A stretch of 37,496 nucleotides of DNA, from positions 1 to 37,496 of the forward strand of contig JANOTP010000283.1 in NCBI GenBank assembly GCA_031416415.1. The letters are read 5' to 3'. This DNA comes from Cytophagales bacterium. GTDB taxonomy: Bacteria > Bacteroidota > Bacteroidia > Cytophagales > Cytophagaceae. The position numbers and the translations under genes were made by a program. This document shows, piece by piece, positions 1 through 4,229 of the stretch (its first letter is position 1; each line of letters opens with the position of its first letter). The notes below the pieces were generated by a model that saw only the letters and a list, made by a program, of their open reading frames with translations, searched no databases and was not told the DNA's origin.

Positions 1-160
1 GTATTTGGTTTTTAAAATTGATAAATTAAAGATAAATACAACGATTTGGCTATGTGCAAACGCGAAACTTTACTGATTTCTATTGCCCAATTTGCCATAT
101 ACTAACCGTTGGCAGTAACCATAAAGACAGACACGTATCAAAAATCAAAACAGGAAGAAG

Positions 161-718
161 ATGAGCTACGACATATATTGCTATAAATCACGACTAGACA
201 GACCTGATTTAGAAGAAGCCCAAACTGCAATTGAAGTTGATGATGAAACAGAAACTATTTCTGACCCTGAAACAAAACAAAAAATTGTAAAAGCATTAAT
301 TGAATATAATCCAAGACTTGAAAGTTTTGATTTTGACTACCAAGAAATTGCTAAACTTCAAGGGATATCAATTGACGAAGCAAAAAAAGCATTTAGCCAT
401 ATTGAATTAAACACACCAGAAGGCGACCTTGCAACTCAAATTACAATATTTGACAACAATGTTTCGATCACTGTTCCATATTGGTATTCGGGAGACAAAG
501 CAACAGAAGTTTTTGATAAAATTTCTAATTATGCAAAAATTATTAGACAGGCAGTAGGTTATTTTGTCTACGACCCTCAAACAGACAAAGTATTTGACCC
601 ATTGACTGAAAATATATTTGGACTTGATGTTTATCAAAGTATGACAGGACAAGTTGAAAAAATGAAAACAGAACAATCACAAAAAATAGAGGAAAAACCT
701 TGGTGGAAATTTTGGTAA
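161..718 (+). CDS. hypothetical acidic protein (185 aa), first gene of a same-strand cassette
   Basis: Uninterrupted ORF in the track; acidic, no recognisable motifs; same strand and close spacing with downstream ORFs 739-3287. Confidence 0.5.
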   Translation: MSYDIYCYKSRLDRPDLEEAQTAIEVDDETETISDPETKQKIVKALIEYNPRLESFDFDYQEIAKLQGISIDEAKKAFSHIELNTPEGDLATQITIFDNNVSITVPYWYSGDKATEVFDKISNYAKIIRQAVGYFVYDPQTDKVFDPLTENIFGLDVYQSMTGQVEKMKTEQSQKIEEKPWWKFW

Positions 719-738
719 ACAGAAACAACAGGACAAGA

Positions 739-876
739 ATGGCTACTGCCAACATCGTATTCGTATTGGCAATGGTGGGGCTGACAGTTGCAAACTCAAC
801 ATTTGTAGTTCTATTAGGCATTTGTACAAATGCTGGACTAACGTTTTCCAAATGCCCCGCCATCGCCAATACTTAA
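739..876 (+). CDS. possible 45-aa hydrophobic small peptide (MATANIVFVLAMVGLTVANSTFVVLLGICTNAGLTFSKCPAIANT)
   Basis: Hand-translated ATG..TAA ORF below the track cutoff; TM-helix-like N-terminus, two Cys; sits between cassette genes on the same strand; local GC higher than surroundings. Confidence 0.3.
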   Translation: MATANIVFVLAMVGLTVANSTFVVLLGICTNAGLTFSKCPAIANT

Positions 877-919
877 ACCGTTACCTACAAGCTAAAAAAC
901 AGAAAGAAACTAAGAATTA

Positions 920-1963
920 ATGAAGAATGGAAAGCCTATATCGCTTAGACCAGTAATTTTAGGTGAAGCAGTTTCATTCCTTGAAACTGAAGGAATGGAA
1001 TGTTTAATTACTCAAAATGGTATCGTATCCCTTGTAAACGAATTAGTAAACTATCGAGAAGAAGGAAAGGACTTATTCCCCAATATATATATAGTAGATA
1101 GCATTGAATTGGTTCTTAAATCTTTACCTCTATCTCAACATTGTTATATAGGTCAAGGAGAAAAAACGAAAGAAACAATGTTAAGAGCGTTAAAAAAATG
1201 TGCGCCTCTTACTAAAGCCGACTGGTCAATATATATTCAACGAAACCTTGACAACTTTAGCTATGGTGTTTTTAGGGCAGGTACTTCCTTGTTATCAGTA
1301 ACTATTGAAGACTCCTTAATAAGGTATGGAACGGAGGAGATTAAAGTTATTTTGTTACATCAAATATCAGACAAACTAATTGAAATTAAAGGTGTGCAAA
1401 ATGAGCCTTTACTTATAAGTTTTGGAGGTAGAGAAGAAGCTAATAAATCACCCATTGAAAATCAAGACGAATTCATAAAAACAATAGTTAAAAATGTTGA
1501 TTGCAATCTAAAAGAGCAAACGTCAAATTTTTATATAAAAGTATTTAATGAAATTCTCAAAGTTGGCCATGGAACACTAGCATGTGTGATTAGTGGAAAC
1601 AAAAAAACAATACCCAAAAAGCTAGAAGATGGAATTATTTTAAAAGAAAGAATTAATATCCCACAAATTATTAAAGAATTATTAGCAAAAGATGACTTAC
1701 AAGCAAACTCTAAACTAAATGGTTTTTTTACAATTATTATAGGTATGATGGAAAGTGATGGCATAACAGTTTTCTCAGATACTGGAGATGTCGTTGCATA
1801 TAATGTTTTTATTAAACACCCCGACTCCATTGCCAAAACGAACACTTCAGGAGGCGCAAGAAGTAGAACATTCTTAACATTATGCCAACTAATAGGCAAA
1901 GGAATCGAATCTGTTTATATTCAATCACAAGATGGCAAAATAGAAATAAAAGATAATGAGTAA
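920..1963 (+). CDS. protein with C-terminal DisA_N/diadenylate-cyclase (DAC)-like domain, divergent motifs (DGI, RSR)
   Basis: C-terminal ~150 aa align by eye to the DAC domain of CdaA/DisA: VGHGTLACVIS ~ GALIVIE, ESDGITVFSDTGDVVAYNV ~ HDGAVIirgdrIvAAgc, TSGGARSRTFLTL..SVYIQSQDGKIEI ~ LGTRHRAALGLSE..IVVSEETGxISl. N-terminal 200 aa unknown and no TM helices, unlike canonical CdaA. Confidence 0.55.
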   Translation: MKNGKPISLRPVILGEAVSFLETEGMECLITQNGIVSLVNELVNYREEGKDLFPNIYIVDSIELVLKSLPLSQHCYIGQGEKTKETMLRALKKCAPLTKADWSIYIQRNLDNFSYGVFRAGTSLLSVTIEDSLIRYGTEEIKVILLHQISDKLIEIKGVQNEPLLISFGGREEANKSPIENQDEFIKTIVKNVDCNLKEQTSNFYIKVFNEILKVGHGTLACVISGNKKTIPKKLEDGIILKERINIPQIIKELLAKDDLQANSKLNGFFTIIIGMMESDGITVFSDTGDVVAYNVFIKHPDSIAKTNTSGGARSRTFLTLCQLIGKGIESVYIQSQDGKIEIKDNE

Positions 1964-3287
1964 CACAGAACTTGTAGTATGGCAAAACATTCCTTTGCCC
2001 ACTATACCAAAAGAAGTATCAAAAATTGAAGATTTAGTTACATACGGTGTACAACTTCAACTGAAAGATAAGAGACAAATTATCTCTGCTTTTAATAATA
2101 ATGCTTATGAAATGGTTTCAACTTATACTTGGACTAAAGCAATCACATCTCTCAAAAATCAATTAAGTAAAATGGGAGTGTCTTTTATTGCAGAAATGCT
2201 GGATAGACCTGACATAAATGAACATACTGACATTCAACAAGCTATTTCTGAATTTGAGGCAATACGTCTTGCTGAAGAATTTGGAGTGATTAGTGGCACC
2301 TCTGCCTTTAGATTGAAAAAGGCAATGGAAACGGTTACTCATTTCAATCAACCAGAACTTGAGGAAGATGAAGAAAGTGAAATGACTCAAGATGAAGCAC
2401 GAACAATTGTAAGAACTTGTATTCAAGGAATTTTAGGGTATAATAAAATTGAAGCTGCAATTGATTTTAAAAATTTTCGTATAGAATTAGAAGACCGTAC
2501 ACTTAACGCAGACAATCCTTATATTCTAAAACTTGTTCAAAGTCCTTACTTTTTTCATAGAACAGTAATTAGGATTTTACTTTCAATTGTTAAAACCTCA
2601 AATGGTGCTCAACTTGAAAATTCTCTGGCTAATTCAAATTTAATTATACCAATGTTATGGGGAAACTTACAACACCCTGAAAGATGGCAAATTGGGAGAA
2701 CATATTCTGAATTATTTACGAATGGTCAATCTATAGCAGCAAGTGGTCTAAAAAGAGTACTACTTAAGGTTAAAGGCTTTGATTTTGTTCCAGAGGATTT
2801 GCGCTCATCTTCATTTATAAAAGCTGCGAATGAAATTTTAACAGCTCATGAGGGAATGAATAATTTTTACAACGAACCGAAACCAGTGAGTACTTTATAT
2901 AATATGGGAAGCGTAATACCAACACCTGCTTTCCCTATTTGTATAACCGCTATTTTGTGTGTAAAACTTGGAAATGGCTATGGCGTATCGAATGCAGCAC
3001 AAGATATTGTAAATGATATTCTAAAAAACATATCTAAAGATAGATGGATTTATTTTTTTAAAGAATGTTTACAATATAATGATAGGATTCTATACAAGCT
3101 TAATTATGACAGGACATTAGATAGATGGTTAAGTTTATTCGATGAAACTTTAATTGACACTGTACTACTTGAAGTTCAAGAAAAGGACTTGATTAATCTT
3201 TTGAAATACACAAAAGACAAAGACAGAAACAGATTAATGAGGTTGGCTAGTCAAATGTATCAAAAAATTGGATACGCAAATAAATAG
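1956..3287 (+). CDS. hypothetical protein (443 aa), overlaps upstream gene by 8 nt (translationally coupled)
   Basis: Long ORF; start overlaps the stop of 920-1963; no recognisable domain. Confidence 0.7.
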   Translation: MSNTELVVWQNIPLPTIPKEVSKIEDLVTYGVQLQLKDKRQIISAFNNNAYEMVSTYTWTKAITSLKNQLSKMGVSFIAEMLDRPDINEHTDIQQAISEFEAIRLAEEFGVISGTSAFRLKKAMETVTHFNQPELEEDEESEMTQDEARTIVRTCIQGILGYNKIEAAIDFKNFRIELEDRTLNADNPYILKLVQSPYFFHRTVIRILLSIVKTSNGAQLENSLANSNLIIPMLWGNLQHPERWQIGRTYSELFTNGQSIAASGLKRVLLKVKGFDFVPEDLRSSSFIKAANEILTAHEGMNNFYNEPKPVSTLYNMGSVIPTPAFPICITAILCVKLGNGYGVSNAAQDIVNDILKNISKDRWIYFFKECLQYNDRILYKLNYDRTLDRWLSLFDETLIDTVLLEVQEKDLINLLKYTKDKDRNRLMRLASQMYQKIGYANK

Positions 3288-3360
3288 CCAGCAGGTAACA
3301 GCGTGTTGTGGTCAGTGCAGGTTTTCTGCTAGAGTAAACAGCGCAACTATTAATCTCCTG

Positions 3361-3392
3361 CTCGCGCAAGCATACGCTTGTGCCCTTTTTTA
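3361..3392 (+). terminator. rho-independent terminator for the cassette (GCGCAAGC-ATAC-GCTTGTGC + T6)
   Basis: GC-rich hairpin followed by cccttttttaa, directly downstream of the 443-aa ORF; a second hairpin TCAAGCGTAAGCTTGA follows. Confidence 0.6.
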
Positions 3393-3461
3393 ATTCAAGC
3401 GTAAGCTTGATACTCCGAAGGGACAATTCTGGTGCGACACCAGCCATGGCATTACGATTCT

Positions 3462-4229
3462 CTACAACTCAATCTCCACCATTACCGGAGCATGATCGGA
3501 ATGTTTGGCTTCCGAAAGAATCACACAACGTTTCAAACGGTCTCTCATTGGCTCTGTTACGACATGATAATCGATGCGCCAACCCAGATTACGTTCGCGT
3601 ATAGTTGGAAAACGTTGGCTCCACCAAGTATATTGATGTGGCTCTTGGTCAAAATGTCTGAAGGCATCAACGTATCCATTCGTAAAAAATTTCTCCATCC
3701 ACTCTCTTTCTTCTGGCAAATATCCAGAAGATTTGGCATTGGATTTAGGATTATGAATGTCAATAGGTTTATGACAAATGTTATAATCACCACAAATTAC
3801 CAAATTAGGTTTTTGCGCTCTCAGTTCATTGATGTATACATAAAAATCGTCCAACCATTTGTATTTAAAGCTTTGTCGTTCATTTCCACTTGTTCCTGAT
3901 GGCATATATACAGACATCACAGAGACAGTTCCAAAGTCTGCACGTATCACTCTTCCTTCAAAATCGTATACTGGTATTCCACAACCGATTTCCACATGAT
4001 CTGGTTTTATTTTTGTAAAAATAGCAGTACCACTATACCCTTTTTTTTCAGCAGGATTTAGAAAAATCTCATACCCCATTTCTTTAAACGCTGTCCAATC
4101 AACGTCCTTCTCTGTAGCCTTAATTTCTTGTAAACAAACAACGTCGGCATCTGTAGCTTTTAACCAATCTATAAATCCTTTTTTTATTGCGGCACGAAGA
4201 CCGTTTACGTTGTAAGTAATTATTTTCAT
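3462..4229 (-). CDS. xth: exodeoxyribonuclease III (AP endonuclease, ExoIII family)
   Basis: MKIITYNVNGLRAAIKKGF..VVCLQEIK..; full-length EEP-fold ExoIII-like sequence, 255 aa. Confidence 0.9.
   Translation of the reverse strand: MKIITYNVNGLRAAIKKGFIDWLKATDADVVCLQEIKATEKDVDWTAFKEMGYEIFLNPAEKKGYSGTAIFTKIKPDHVEIGCGIPVYDFEGRVIRADFGTVSVMSVYMPSGTSGNERQSFKYKWLDDFYVYINELRAQKPNLVICGDYNICHKPIDIHNPKSNAKSSGYLPEEREWMEKFFTNGYVDAFRHFDQEPHQYTWWSQRFPTIRERNLGWRIDYHVVTEPMRDRLKRCVILSEAKHSDHAPVMVEIEL

What the first reader, a model, noticed from the sequence alone, without database searches (positions are those of the whole stretch)
161..3287. Four-ORF same-strand cassette containing a divergent DAC (diadenylate-cyclase/DisA_N)-like domain protein
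The cassette is a 185-aa acidic protein, a 45-aa hydrophobic micro-ORF, a 347-aa protein and an 8-nt-overlapping 443-aa protein. A terminator lies at 3361-3392. The 347-aa protein has a C-terminal ~150 aa that follow the DAC-domain block pattern (G.GTLaCVIs, sDGItVfsdtGdVvAyn, sGGARSRTflT, SvYIQSQdGKIEI). The catalytic DGA and RHR motifs are altered to DGI and RSR, and it lacks the TM region of CdaA. The partner protein has no recognisable domain. The cassette could be an uncharacterised nucleotide-signalling module or a nucleotide-binding module, possibly a defence-like one.
Basis: inference. Interest (0 to 1): 0.65.

Follow-up and report, generated by a model that had tools for sequence, protein, structure and literature searches.

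The report
Two-gene DAC-like candidate phage-defence module
Two overlapping genes, one carrying a very divergent copy of the enzyme fold that makes cyclic di-AMP and the other an unannotated helical partner, always travel together across many bacterial phyla, mostly in mobile elements and defence islands, so they look like an undescribed anti-phage signalling system.

Summary
The real unit has two genes, not four: A (920-1963, 347 aa) and B (1956-3287, 443 aa). They overlap by 8 nt, and a terminator follows at 3364-3392. The 185-aa ORF and the 45-aa micro-ORF appear in none of about 60 related loci.

- **B:** all-helical and unannotated. Its N-terminal part appears derived from a HEPN domain, but the Rx4-6H motif is lost. 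Distant stand-alone relatives on plasmids keep that motif.
- **Synteny:** A is directly upstream of B in all 58 loci where both could be seen, across at least six phyla, plasmids and prophages.
- **Context:** neighbours include restriction-modification, CBASS, pAgo-SIR2, Dsr2 and integrases.
- **Variants:** some add a small membrane protein (SLATT_5, a CBASS-type 2TM protein or a new family) or a ~1050-aa SIR2 protein. One replaces A with a caspase-like domain fused to B.

Best reading: a third, undescribed class of DAC-containing anti-phage module. No function has been tested.

The parts
876..919 (+). Short 5' leader of gene A. This is the only upstream sequence shared with the closest related loci.
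   Evidence: blastn: 80% identity over 876-940 to L001, L002, L008 and L009. Nothing further upstream is shared with them.
920..1963 (+). Gene A, 347 aa: an N-terminal domain of unknown fold plus a C-terminal DAC-fold domain. It has no transmembrane segment.
   Evidence: ORF. Homologues: 207. The family has 727 clusters at 50% identity, nearly all about 345 aa. AF2 model pLDDT 88.5.
920..1435 (+). A N-terminal alpha/beta domain (residues 1-172). Family-invariant residues are E47 E48 K92 G116, within the YxEEG and ALKKCAPL motifs. Inferred to be a regulatory or sensor domain.
1502..1960 (+). A C-terminal DAC-fold domain (residues ~195-347). Motif residues are H217-G218 (nt 1568-1573), D280-G281 (nt 1757-1762), G311-G312-A-R314-S-R316 (nt 1850-1867) and S336-Q-D338-G339 (nt 1925-1936).
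1956..1963 (+). 8-nt overlap (ATGAGTAA) between the end of A and the start of B, which suggests translational coupling.
   Evidence: Sequence. The two genes overlap or are separated by only a few bases to about 30 nt in essentially all related loci.
1956..3287 (+). Gene B, 443 aa: an all-alpha protein that is the constant partner of A and is more conserved than A.
   Evidence: ORF. Homologues: 1056. AF2 model is all-helical, pLDDT 75, pTM 0.47. B is 38-50% identical across phyla where A is 27-46%.
2061..2450 (+). B N-terminal helical bundle (residues ~36-165), probably HEPN-derived. The position of the canonical Rx4-6H motif reads 'ETVTHF' here, so the arginine is lost.
2775..2879 (+). The most conserved stretch of B: G274-F-D-F-V-P-E-D-L-R-S284, specific to the subtype that pairs with A or with the caspase-like domain, and A297-H298-x-G-x-N-N303-F-Y-N-E307-P, shared by the whole superfamily. 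Inferred to be an interaction or ligand site.
   Evidence: Alignments A4 and A7. The first motif lies in a low-confidence loop of the model, residues 255-283.
3364..3392 (+). Intrinsic-terminator-like hairpin (GCGCAAGC-ATAC-GCTTGTGC) followed by a T-run. This is the end of the operon.
   Evidence: The next gene (3462-4229) lies on the opposite strand.

Best explanation
A and B form a self-contained, horizontally mobile two-gene conflict module, most likely anti-phage and acting by abortive infection.

- **Role of A (inferred).** A is a nucleotide-signal synthase. Its C-terminal DAC-fold domain keeps the core residues of the stretches corresponding to the DAC motifs (the D-G of DGA, G-G-x-R-x-R in place of GTRHR, and S-x-D). 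By analogy with other DAC domains, two copies would need to pair head-to-head to join two NTPs. Its N-terminal domain would control that activity.
- **Role of B (inferred).** B is the constant partner and probable hub of the system. It descends from stand-alone HEPN proteins but has lost the HEPN catalytic arginine. I therefore read it as a sensor, regulator or signal receptor rather than an RNase.
- **Output step.** In some lineages a visible effector is added: a small membrane protein (SLATT_5, a CBASS-type 2TM protein or a new 3-TM family) or a ~1050-aa SIR2 protein. In the two-gene form found in this window the killing or arrest step is unknown. It could be B itself or a host pathway that responds to the nucleotide.

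Shown here: the fold of A, residue conservation, strict synteny, patchy cross-phylum distribution, location in mobile elements and defence islands, and the swapping of accessory genes.

Inferred only: enzymatic activity, the product, which protein senses infection, and whether signalling is switched on by infection (as in CBASS) or is constitutive and monitored (as in Panoptes).
For: **Fold and active-site residues of A**
- Across a family alignment at 23-52% identity, H217 G218 D280 G281 G311 R314 G339 are invariant and G312 R316 S336 Q337 D338 are near-invariant.
- The D-to-R spacing is 34 residues, against 32 in B. subtilis CdaA (D171GA, R203HR).
- The active immune DAC PanS carries DGF and GGR, and mutating them abolishes synthesis.

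**Linkage of A and B**
- B is directly downstream of A in all 34 loci of the first set.
- In the reciprocal scan seeded on B, A is upstream in all 25 metagenome loci with room.
- Apart from a ~1050-aa SIR2 gene in three closely related loci, no third gene recurred next to the pair in the first 31 loci.
- Hosts span Bacteroidota, Pseudomonadota, Acidobacteriota, Actinomycetota, Thermodesulfovibrionales and Binatia, plus plasmids and prophage-like contigs.

**Neighbourhoods**
- Conjugative-element tra genes, a SIR2 protein and a type I restriction-modification (RM) system.
- A PLD-helicase, an HNH protein and a methyltransferase with an ATPase.
- pAgo-SIR2.
- Type III CBASS, AbiE and an integrase.
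- Integrases, insertion sequences and a group II intron.
- In L029 the pair lies between a homologue of the type I RM methylase HsdM and the restriction subunit HsdR. In L034 a Dsr2 gene lies downstream.
- A patatin plus nucleotidyltransferase pair.
- ImmA/IrrE, AimR and a type II RM system in the prophage-like contigs.

**Effector swapping directly after B**
- SLATT_5, Pfam E 5.8e-24.
- A CBASS-type 2TM effector, PADLOC E 1.6e-9.
- A conserved 204-aa 3-TM family in at least nine loci.
- A ~1050-aa SIR2 protein next to A-B, and also next to a caspase-B fusion that lacks A.
Against: - No experiment of any kind supports the model.
- No sequence model recognises the DAC domain. Pfam DisA_N gives no hit, even at E 10, in 37 members, and the best PDB sequence hit has E 0.04.
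- The His of RHR is not conserved and the Ala of DGA is replaced by I, V or L, so A could bind rather than synthesise a nucleotide.
- The two-gene form in this window has no recognisable effector or nucleotide-receptor domain.
- Three of about ten well-annotated contexts, including this window, sit among housekeeping genes.
- No enrichment statistic against a genomic background was computed.
- Many Bacteroidota are thought to have their own c-di-AMP synthase (from memory, not checked here). A c-di-AMP immune signal would then risk cross-talk. PanS was never found together with a housekeeping DAC.
Confidence: 0.55

Rival explanations
1. Decoy or guard system of the Panoptes, PanDA or Panoptoo kind. 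A constantly makes a cyclic nucleotide that keeps B, or the appended membrane or SIR2 effector, switched off. Phage sponge or nuclease proteins that remove cyclic nucleotides release the effector. This is a sub-model of the best explanation with the opposite signalling logic.
For: - The only mechanistically studied stand-alone DAC defence systems work this way.
- Those systems often lie next to CBASS. A-B lies next to a patatin plus nucleotidyltransferase pair and 2 kb from a type III CBASS.
- 2TM-type proteins follow B in some loci.
Against: - A is not a minimal DAC. It carries a conserved 170-residue N-terminal domain, which suggests regulated rather than constitutive activity.
- The partner in the window is a soluble helical protein, not a 2TM beta-barrel.
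- Only 2 of about 60 loci were seen next to CBASS.
Confidence: 0.15
2. Toxin-antitoxin-like pair in which A covalently nucleotidylates B, or a target of B. The analogy is the MNT antitoxin AMPylating its HEPN toxin. No diffusible signal is involved.
For: - B is HEPN-derived.
- The MNT-HEPN precedent (abstract of PMC7641770, listed).
- The genes overlap tightly and are strictly paired.
- The module occurs on plasmids next to other toxin-antitoxin genes.
Against: - B has lost the HEPN catalytic arginine, so it is unlikely to be an RNase toxin that needs neutralising.
- Stand-alone relatives that keep Rx6H exist without any A-like gene.
- As far as I know, no DAC-fold enzyme modifies a protein.
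- The appended membrane and SIR2 genes fit a signalling system better.
Confidence: 0.1
3. A is a pseudo-enzyme. Its DAC-fold pocket binds a nucleotide, either a phage- or stress-derived signal or ATP, and acts as the sensor that regulates B.
For: - Both canonical motifs are altered: DGA to DG[IVL], and RHR to R-x-R with a variable middle residue.
- Every sequence model for DAC fails to detect the domain.
- A degenerate DAC-like domain without catalytic residues has a precedent in the DACNH domain of CdaG.
Against: - The residues retained are the ones shown to matter in the active PanS: D, G, G and R.
- The acidic residue two positions after the conserved Ser (D338) is also kept. From memory, not checked here, it corresponds to the metal-binding Glu of CdaA.
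- Invariance of eleven positions across 23-52% identity suggests catalysis, although a binding site could be equally constrained.
Confidence: 0.12
4. Not immunity. A is a housekeeping or stress-related c-di-AMP cyclase with an unusual regulator B, or the pair is a maintenance or addiction function of a mobile element.
For: - In the window and in L036 and L037 the pair sits among ordinary metabolic genes.
- DAC enzymes are classically homeostatic.
- Distant B relatives sit on small plasmids beside resolvases.
Against: - The distribution across phyla is patchy, and close relatives of the window's genes occur in several genera and orders of Bacteroidota.
- There is no conserved link to potassium or osmolyte transporters, cell-wall genes or DNA-repair genes.
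- The pair repeatedly lies next to restriction, CBASS, pAgo, Dsr2 and SIR2 genes and in prophage lysogeny regions.
- Accessory slots are filled by classical abortive-infection effectors.
Confidence: 0.08

Closest known systems
Panoptoo / PanDA (PanS minimal DAC plus PanE 2TM-beta effector; bioRxiv 10.64898/2026.08.10.743927 and 10.64898/2026.08.10.743972)
   Same: - A DAC-fold protein in a small operon found in defence islands, sometimes next to CBASS.
- Non-canonical motifs: PanS has DGF and GGR, A has DG[IVL] and GGAR.
- Some A-B variants are followed by a 2TM-type membrane protein.
   Different: - PanS is about 150 aa, is DAC-only and is found by Pfam DisA_N. A is 347 aa, has an extra conserved N-terminal domain and is invisible to Pfam.
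- The obligatory partner here is a 443-aa soluble helical protein, not a 2TM beta-barrel.
- The product and the signalling logic are unknown.
CBASS-DAC / DS-2 / Liu-DS2 (CdaG-family DAC: DACNG + DACNH + DAC, ~550-575 aa; PMC13092281, PMC13069673)
   Same: A multi-domain DAC protein with uncharacterised N-terminal domain(s), associated with defence and validated in that case as needed for immunity.
   Different: - There is no DACNG or DACNH match.
- There is no CD-NTase or patatin gene in the operon.
- The length and the partner differ.
Canonical diadenylate cyclases CdaA, DisA, CdaS and CdaM
   Same: - The same order and spacing of the GAL-like, DG, G-x-R-x-R and S-x-acidic stretches.
   Different: - No transmembrane segment, no DisA helix-hairpin-helix domain and no CdaS-type N-terminus.
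- No link to glmM or cdaR.
- The His of RHR and the Ala of DGA are not kept.
- The genes are accessory and mobile rather than core.
HEPN-domain abortive-infection and toxin proteins (for example HepT/MntA, RnlA, AbiV, ApeA)
   Same: - B's best structural matches are HEPN domains.
- B's distant stand-alone relatives carry a canonical R-N-x5-H motif at the homologous position and sit on plasmids.
   Different: - B itself lacks the Rx4-6H arginine.
- B has a large extra C-terminal region with its own invariant AHxGxNNFYNEP motif.
- No HEPN sequence model matches it.
SLATT and 2TM effectors of nucleotide-signalling conflict systems (the Pfam description of SLATT_5 reads 'SMODS and SLOG-associating 2TM effector domain family 5')
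   Same: A SLATT_5 protein and a CBASS-type 2TM protein occupy the slot directly after B in two proteobacterial loci.
   Different: - Neither is present in the window or in any Bacteroidota locus examined.
- The commonest third gene (204 aa, 3 TM) shows no detectable similarity to either.

Membership tests
DAC domain (DisA_N, PF02457 / PROSITE DAC profile) | Mixed alpha/beta DAC fold | tested here: met
   [not shown]
DAC domain (DisA_N, PF02457 / PROSITE DAC profile) | Match to the curated sequence model above its threshold | tested here: not met
   No DisA_N hit, even at E <= 10, for the window protein or any of 37 family members. NCBIfam finds nothing. The family profile against the PDB gives only CdaS at E 0.04. 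One member is labelled 'DAC domain-containing protein' by UniRef, so another profile does reach part of the family.
DAC domain (DisA_N, PF02457 / PROSITE DAC profile) | DGA motif | tested here: inconclusive
   D280 and G281 are invariant. The third position is I, V or L, never A. Active PanS has DGF.
DAC domain (DisA_N, PF02457 / PROSITE DAC profile) | RHR motif | tested here: not met
   R314 is invariant and R316 near-invariant, but the middle residue varies (S, R, K, T, D, L and others). Active PanS has GGR, so a strict RHR is not required for activity.
DAC domain (DisA_N, PF02457 / PROSITE DAC profile) | Synthesis of c-di-AMP or another cyclic dinucleotide by a head-to-head dimer | not testable with these tools
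   This needs biochemistry. No multimer modelling was available.
Panoptoo / PanDA | Minimal (~150 aa) DAC-only synthase | tested here: not met
   A is 347 aa with a conserved N-terminal domain of about 170 residues.
Panoptoo / PanDA | Operonic 2TM beta-barrel (S2TM-beta) effector | tested here: not met
   B is all-helical with no convincing transmembrane segment. It has no PADLOC or Pfam effector hit.
CBASS-DAC (CdaG family) | DACNG and DACNH domains before the DAC domain, in an operon with a CD-NTase and an effector | tested here: not met
   No Pfam hit of any kind in A. The operon contains only A and B.
CdaA | N-terminal transmembrane helices and the cdaA-cdaR-glmM neighbourhood | tested here: not met
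   No transmembrane segment. Apart from a ~1050-aa SIR2 gene in three closely related loci, no third gene recurred next to the pair in the first 31 loci.
HEPN superfamily (protein B) | Four-helix up-down HEPN bundle | tested here: inconclusive
   [not shown]
HEPN superfamily (protein B) | Conserved Rx4-6H catalytic motif | tested here: not met
   A-associated B proteins read E-x-[VIL]-x-H-[FY] at the position where stand-alone relatives read R-N-x5-H. The one Rx5H in the window protein (R84-H90) has a non-conserved His.
MNT-HEPN toxin-antitoxin | Polymerase-beta-fold minimal nucleotidyltransferase partner | tested here: not met
   [not shown]
Known or candidate defence systems in PADLOC-DB 2.0.0 | Match to any of its 5027 models | tested here: not met
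   No hit for A, B, the 185-aa ORF or the micro-ORF at E <= 10.

The most novel reading that the evidence does not exclude
A-B is a third, previously unseen class of immune DAC system. A would make a nucleotide signal, possibly not c-di-AMP, because many host phyla are thought to use c-di-AMP for homeostasis. B would represent a new sensor or hub superfamily that evolved from stand-alone HEPN abortive-infection proteins by losing its RNase site and recruiting interchangeable outputs: a DAC cyclase, a caspase-like protease, SIR2, or SLATT/2TM pores.

A further possibility is that the two-gene form needs no dedicated effector in hosts that use c-di-AMP, because a burst of the signal would itself shut down potassium and osmolyte uptake, whereas some proteobacterial hosts add a membrane effector.
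Probability: 0.35. Interest if true: 0.85.

Novelty: new variant of a known kind. Interest (0 to 1): 0.7.

Why it matters
- **Timing.** DAC domains were linked to immunity only in 2025-2026. The August 2026 survey that searched defence islands by Pfam signature reported two classes, a minimal PanS-type DAC and the CdaG-type DAC attached to CBASS. A parallel homology-seeded survey highlighted the same two.
- **What this family adds.** The family (at least 727 clusters at 50% identity, at least six phyla, plasmids and prophages) is invisible to Pfam, so a Pfam-based survey would miss it. Current counts of nucleotide-signalling defence may therefore be too low.
- **Testable handles.** The module is only 2.4 kb, and the point mutants to try are clear (D280, R314, D338 in A; H298, N303, E307 in B).
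- **Natural variants.** Variants with and without visible effectors can be compared directly to learn how a DAC signal is read out.
- **HEPN evolution.** The B superfamily may show how a HEPN toxin is turned into a regulator.

Tried and rejected
1. **Four-gene cassette: rejected.** The 185-aa ORF and the micro-ORF are absent from all related loci.
2. **Internal duplication (N-domain of A as a second, degenerate DAC): no sequence support.** hhalign probability is 0.5%.
3. **Informative fusions of A: none.** The longer family members (P0277, P0337, P0282, P0359) have low-complexity, high-GC extensions with no significant Pfam domain.
4. **Non-coding RNA or tRNA in 1-4000: none**. The promoter scan was below the shuffled expectation.
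5. **Sequence-level annotation of B: nothing.** Neither Pfam on 22 members nor a profile search against the PDB gave a hit.
6. **Common origin of the three kinds of third-gene membrane protein: not supported**.
7. **B in sequenced phage genomes: no match**. Prophage-like IMG/VR contigs do carry A-B.
8. **Prior literature.** Text searches by DAC, HEPN and defence terms and by RefSeq accessions found no description of this pair. Galperin's 2023 census of DAC architectures is not in the library, so I could not check whether this architecture is one of its 22 families.
9. **AlphaFold database fold search:** the library was unavailable.


Full report
**1. What is in the window**

- ORFs lie at 161-718 (185 aa), 920-1963 (347 aa, called A here) and 1956-3287 (443 aa, called B), all on the + strand.
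- A 45-aa ATG ORF lies at 739-876.
- A and B overlap by the 8 nt ATGAGTAA.
- A hairpin plus T-run lies at 3364-3392.
- From 3462 onward the ORFs include one on the opposite strand, and no further homologue of the module's accessory genes was seen. I did not annotate these ORFs.
- The window is a complete 37,496-nt contig, so nothing is known to the left of position 1.
- Pfam, NCBIfam and PADLOC give no significant hit for any of the four ORFs.

**2. The unit has two genes**

- A has 207 word-indexed homologues and B has 1056.
- I fetched seven loci by exact protein look-up and 27 by a scan of one genome per species. In all 34, tblastn finds B directly downstream of A on the same strand. A's identity to the window protein ranges from 89% down to 27%.
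- A reciprocal metagenome scan seeded only on a proteobacterial B alignment returned 27 loci. A lies directly upstream in all 25 that have room.
- The 185-aa protein matches none of these loci and is a singleton cluster.
- Only about 45 nt upstream of A are shared with the nearest relatives.
- Clustering of all neighbouring ORFs in the first 31 loci found no other gene recurring next to the pair, apart from a SIR2 gene in three closely related loci.
- The micro-ORF and the 185-aa ORF are therefore neighbours, or in the micro-ORF's case possibly not a gene at all.

**3. Protein A**

- *Model.* An AlphaFold2 model built on 37 homologues is confident (pLDDT 88.5, pTM 0.83).
- *Sequence level.* The relationship is almost invisible. 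Pfam DisA_N gives no hit, even at E 10, in 37 members. The family profile's best PDB match is CdaS at E 0.04, aligning HGtLiaV with HGALIVV. UniRef labels one member 'DAC domain-containing protein'.
- *Family size.* An exhaustive HMMER search finds 727 clusters at 50% identity (621 at E <= 1e-10). Nearly all of the 150 best-scoring are 335-360 aa and match end to end.
- *Conserved residues.* In a 51-sequence alignment at 23-52% identity, the invariant residues of the C-terminal half are H217 G218, D280 G281, G311 R314 and G339. G312, R316, S336, Q337 and D338 are near-invariant. These lie in the stretches corresponding to the DAC motifs.
- *Spacing.* D-to-R is 34 residues, against 32 in B. subtilis CdaA (D171GA, R203HR).
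- *Altered motifs.* The Ala of DGA and the His of RHR are not kept. The experimentally active immune DAC PanS has DGF and GGR, and mutating those motifs kills synthesis. The altered motifs therefore do not argue for inactivity.
- *N-terminal domain.* Residues 1-172 form an alpha/beta domain with its own invariant residues (E47 E48 K92 G116). It has no sequence or structural relative that I could find and no detectable similarity to the DAC half.

**4. Protein B**

- *Conservation.* B is more conserved than A. Between the window and Vibrio, B is 43% identical and A is 30%.
- *Model.* It is all-helical and of moderate confidence (pLDDT 75, pTM 0.47). The most conserved motif, GFDFVPEDLRS, lies in a low-confidence loop.
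- *Independent support for HEPN.* tblastn against plasmids finds distant relatives (16-22% identity). An hhalign test of the C. perfringens one gave probability 98.8%, E 9e-17. They are stand-alone genes of about 470 aa on plasmids of Clostridium perfringens, Acinetobacter, Bacillus, Streptomyces and Pantoea, with no annotated A-like gene beside them. All five carry IRDMRN[YWH]ASAAHPN, a canonical HEPN R-N-x5-H, at the position where every A-associated B reads E-x-[VIL]-x-H-[FY].
- *Interpretation.* I read B as a HEPN-derived protein that has lost its catalytic arginine. This is an inference from alignments at low identity.
- *Shared residues.* Invariant across the whole superfamily are W59, L66, C155, N226, W235, G274, H298, N303, E307, P322 and A348. 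They include the AHxGxNNFYNEP motif, whose function is unknown.

**5. Distribution and context**

- *Hosts.* Bacteroidota of several orders, Pseudomonadota (Vibrio, Marinobacter, Methylobacter, Chromatiaceae, Craterilacuibacter, Agrobacterium), Acidobacteriota, Cellulomonas, Thermodesulfovibrionales and Binatia.
- *Plasmids.* The pair is on plasmids of Spirosoma, Vibrio and Agrobacterium.
- *Prophage-like contigs.* Three contigs carry it. One has ImmA/IrrE just upstream and a terminase gene 4 kb downstream. Another has a type II restriction-modification (RM) system on one side and AimR on the other. AimR suggests a Bacillus-type phage; this host inference is mine.
- *Neighbours elsewhere.*
  - Conjugative-element tra genes, a 1052-aa SIR2 protein and a type I RM system.
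  - A PLD-helicase, an HNH protein and a methyltransferase with an ATPase.
  - pAgo-SIR2 and a Schlafen-like helicase.
  - Type III CBASS, AbiE and an integrase.
  - Integrases, an IS91-family element, a group II intron and a YobI ATPase.
  - Insertion between a homologue of the type I RM methylase HsdM and the restriction subunit HsdR, and a Dsr2 gene.
  - A patatin plus nucleotidyltransferase pair.
- *Exceptions.* In three well-annotated cases, including this window, the pair sits alone among housekeeping genes.
- *Limit.* I did not compute an enrichment statistic.

**6. Variants that bear on mechanism**

- In proteobacterial loci the slot directly after B is often filled by a small membrane protein:
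  - SLATT_5 in Craterilacuibacter (Pfam E 5.8e-24).
  - A CBASS-type 2TM effector in Marinobacter (PADLOC E 1.6e-9).
  - A new family of about 204 aa with three predicted transmembrane segments, in at least nine loci from Vibrio, Pseudoalteromonas and marine metagenomes. Members are 35-47% identical to each other.
- The three kinds show no detectable mutual similarity.
- None of about 20 Bacteroidota loci has such a gene.
- A ~1050-aa SIR2_2 protein follows B by 29-53 nt in three Bacteroidota loci. Its full-length homologue (28% identity, E 1e-110) precedes, by 39 nt, a 694-aa protein in a prophage-like contig. In that protein a caspase-like Peptidase_C14 domain (AGHG, DACHSG) is fused to a B domain of the A-associated subtype, and no A gene is present.
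- B therefore keeps company with four classical abortive-infection outputs: membrane proteins, SIR2, a caspase-like protease and, ancestrally, its own HEPN site. The DAC-like A is the commonest partner.

**7. Mechanism**

- *Best-supported reading (confidence about 0.55 for the specifics, about 0.8 for 'a conflict or defence module of some kind').* A is a regulated nucleotide-signal synthase. B is the sensor, regulator or receptor hub. The output is a dedicated effector where one is present, and is unknown in the two-gene form of this window.
- *Not decided by my data.* Whether infection switches A on (CBASS logic) or A runs constantly and its loss is sensed (Panoptes, PanDA or Panoptoo logic). 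The large conserved N-domain of A leans towards regulation.
- *Rivals.* Covalent nucleotidylation of B (MNT-HEPN logic), a non-catalytic nucleotide-binding A, and a non-immune role.
- *Open point.* PanS was never found in genomes that have a housekeeping DAC. From memory, and not checked here, Bacteroidota generally have one. If so, A either stays tightly off or makes a different nucleotide.

**8. Comparison with what is known**

- Described defence-associated DACs are the minimal PanS (about 150 aa, with a 2TM beta-barrel partner) and CdaG/DS-2C (DACNG-DACNH-DAC, about 550-575 aa, attached to CBASS).
- A-B shares the fold and the genomic habitat with them, but fails the defining architecture of both.
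- It is also absent from PADLOC 2.0.0, NCBIfam release 20 and RefSeq product names, where all members seen are 'hypothetical protein'.
- I found no paper describing it. I could not read Galperin's 2023 catalogue of 22 DAC architectures.

**9. Verdict**

- The DAC-like call is right at the level of fold.
- The cassette has two genes, not four.
- The defence-like interpretation is well supported by context but untested.
- I rate it a new variant of a known kind (DAC-based immune signalling), with interest 0.7.

Noticed in passing
window 161-718 (+): 185-aa acidic ORF at the contig edge. It is a singleton cluster in a 15-billion-protein collection, has no Pfam, NCBIfam or PADLOC hit, and is absent from every related A-B locus. 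Its function and reality as a gene are unknown.
   Followed up: partly
window 739-876 (+); L017 10841-10936: 45-aa hydrophobic micro-ORF between the 185-aa ORF and A. It is not conserved upstream of A elsewhere. One weak DNA and tblastx match (77% over 60 nt) falls in an unrelated part of locus L017. There is no Rfam or tRNA hit.
   Followed up: partly
L074 7194-9278 (IMG/VR UViG 2788500236_000002): A single 694-aa ORF fuses a caspase-like Peptidase_C14 domain (Pfam E 1.4e-13; AGHG and DACHSG motifs) to a B-type domain of the A-associated subtype. No A gene is present.
   Followed up: partly
L001 12397-15555, L008 2471-5629, L011 2865-6023; L074 4018-7155: A ~1050-aa SIR2_2 protein lies 29-53 nt after B in three Bacteroidota loci. 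Its full-length homologue (28% identity, E 1e-110) lies 39 nt before the caspase-B fusion. It may be a facultative NADase effector of these systems. Its other domains were not examined.
   Followed up: partly
L031 12326-12940, L032, L038, L041, L042, L061, L067 3225-3839, L068 8001-8633, L069 8001-8600: A new family of about 204 aa with three predicted transmembrane segments (motifs MKYxIPxW, KEYxSxRxY, IDLxxHFWN) directly follows B in Vibrio, Pseudoalteromonas and marine metagenome loci. It has only 25 clusters, no annotation and no detectable similarity to SLATT_5 or CBASS 2TM proteins. One distant member (P0408) stands alone without A-B.
   Followed up: yes
L065 3863-5281, L066 3800-5200, L071 2794-4212, L072 2752-4206, L073 2452-3867: Stand-alone B-like proteins of about 470 aa with a canonical HEPN R-N-x5-H motif sit on plasmids of C. 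perfringens, Acinetobacter, Bacillus, Streptomyces and Pantoea, often beside resolvase and toxin-antitoxin genes. All are annotated 'hypothetical protein'. They may be an unrecognised single-gene HEPN abortive-infection family.
   Followed up: partly
L029 6777-15706: A-B lies between a homologue of the type I restriction-modification methylase HsdM (with two unannotated ORFs after it) and the restriction subunit HsdR (PADLOC REase_I, E 4.5e-184) in a Chromatiaceae MAG.
   Followed up: partly
L079 2746-7332 (Agrobacterium pAtCG920); L006 14335-18531: A-B is divergently adjacent to a patatin-like phospholipase plus nucleotidyltransferase pair that looks like CBASS. On the Spirosoma plasmid it lies 2 kb from a type III CBASS (SMODS, HORMA, AAA, SAVED).
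   Followed up: no
window 971-1001 (+): A 12-bp terminator-like hairpin inside the coding sequence of A, with only 3 GC pairs. The number of such sites in the region matches the shuffled expectation, so it is probably chance.
   Followed up: no
P0277, P0337, P0282, P0359: A-family members of 433-606 aa from high-GC sources carry Pro/Ala/Arg-rich low-complexity extensions. These are most likely mis-called starts or read-through rather than real domain fusions.
   Followed up: yes
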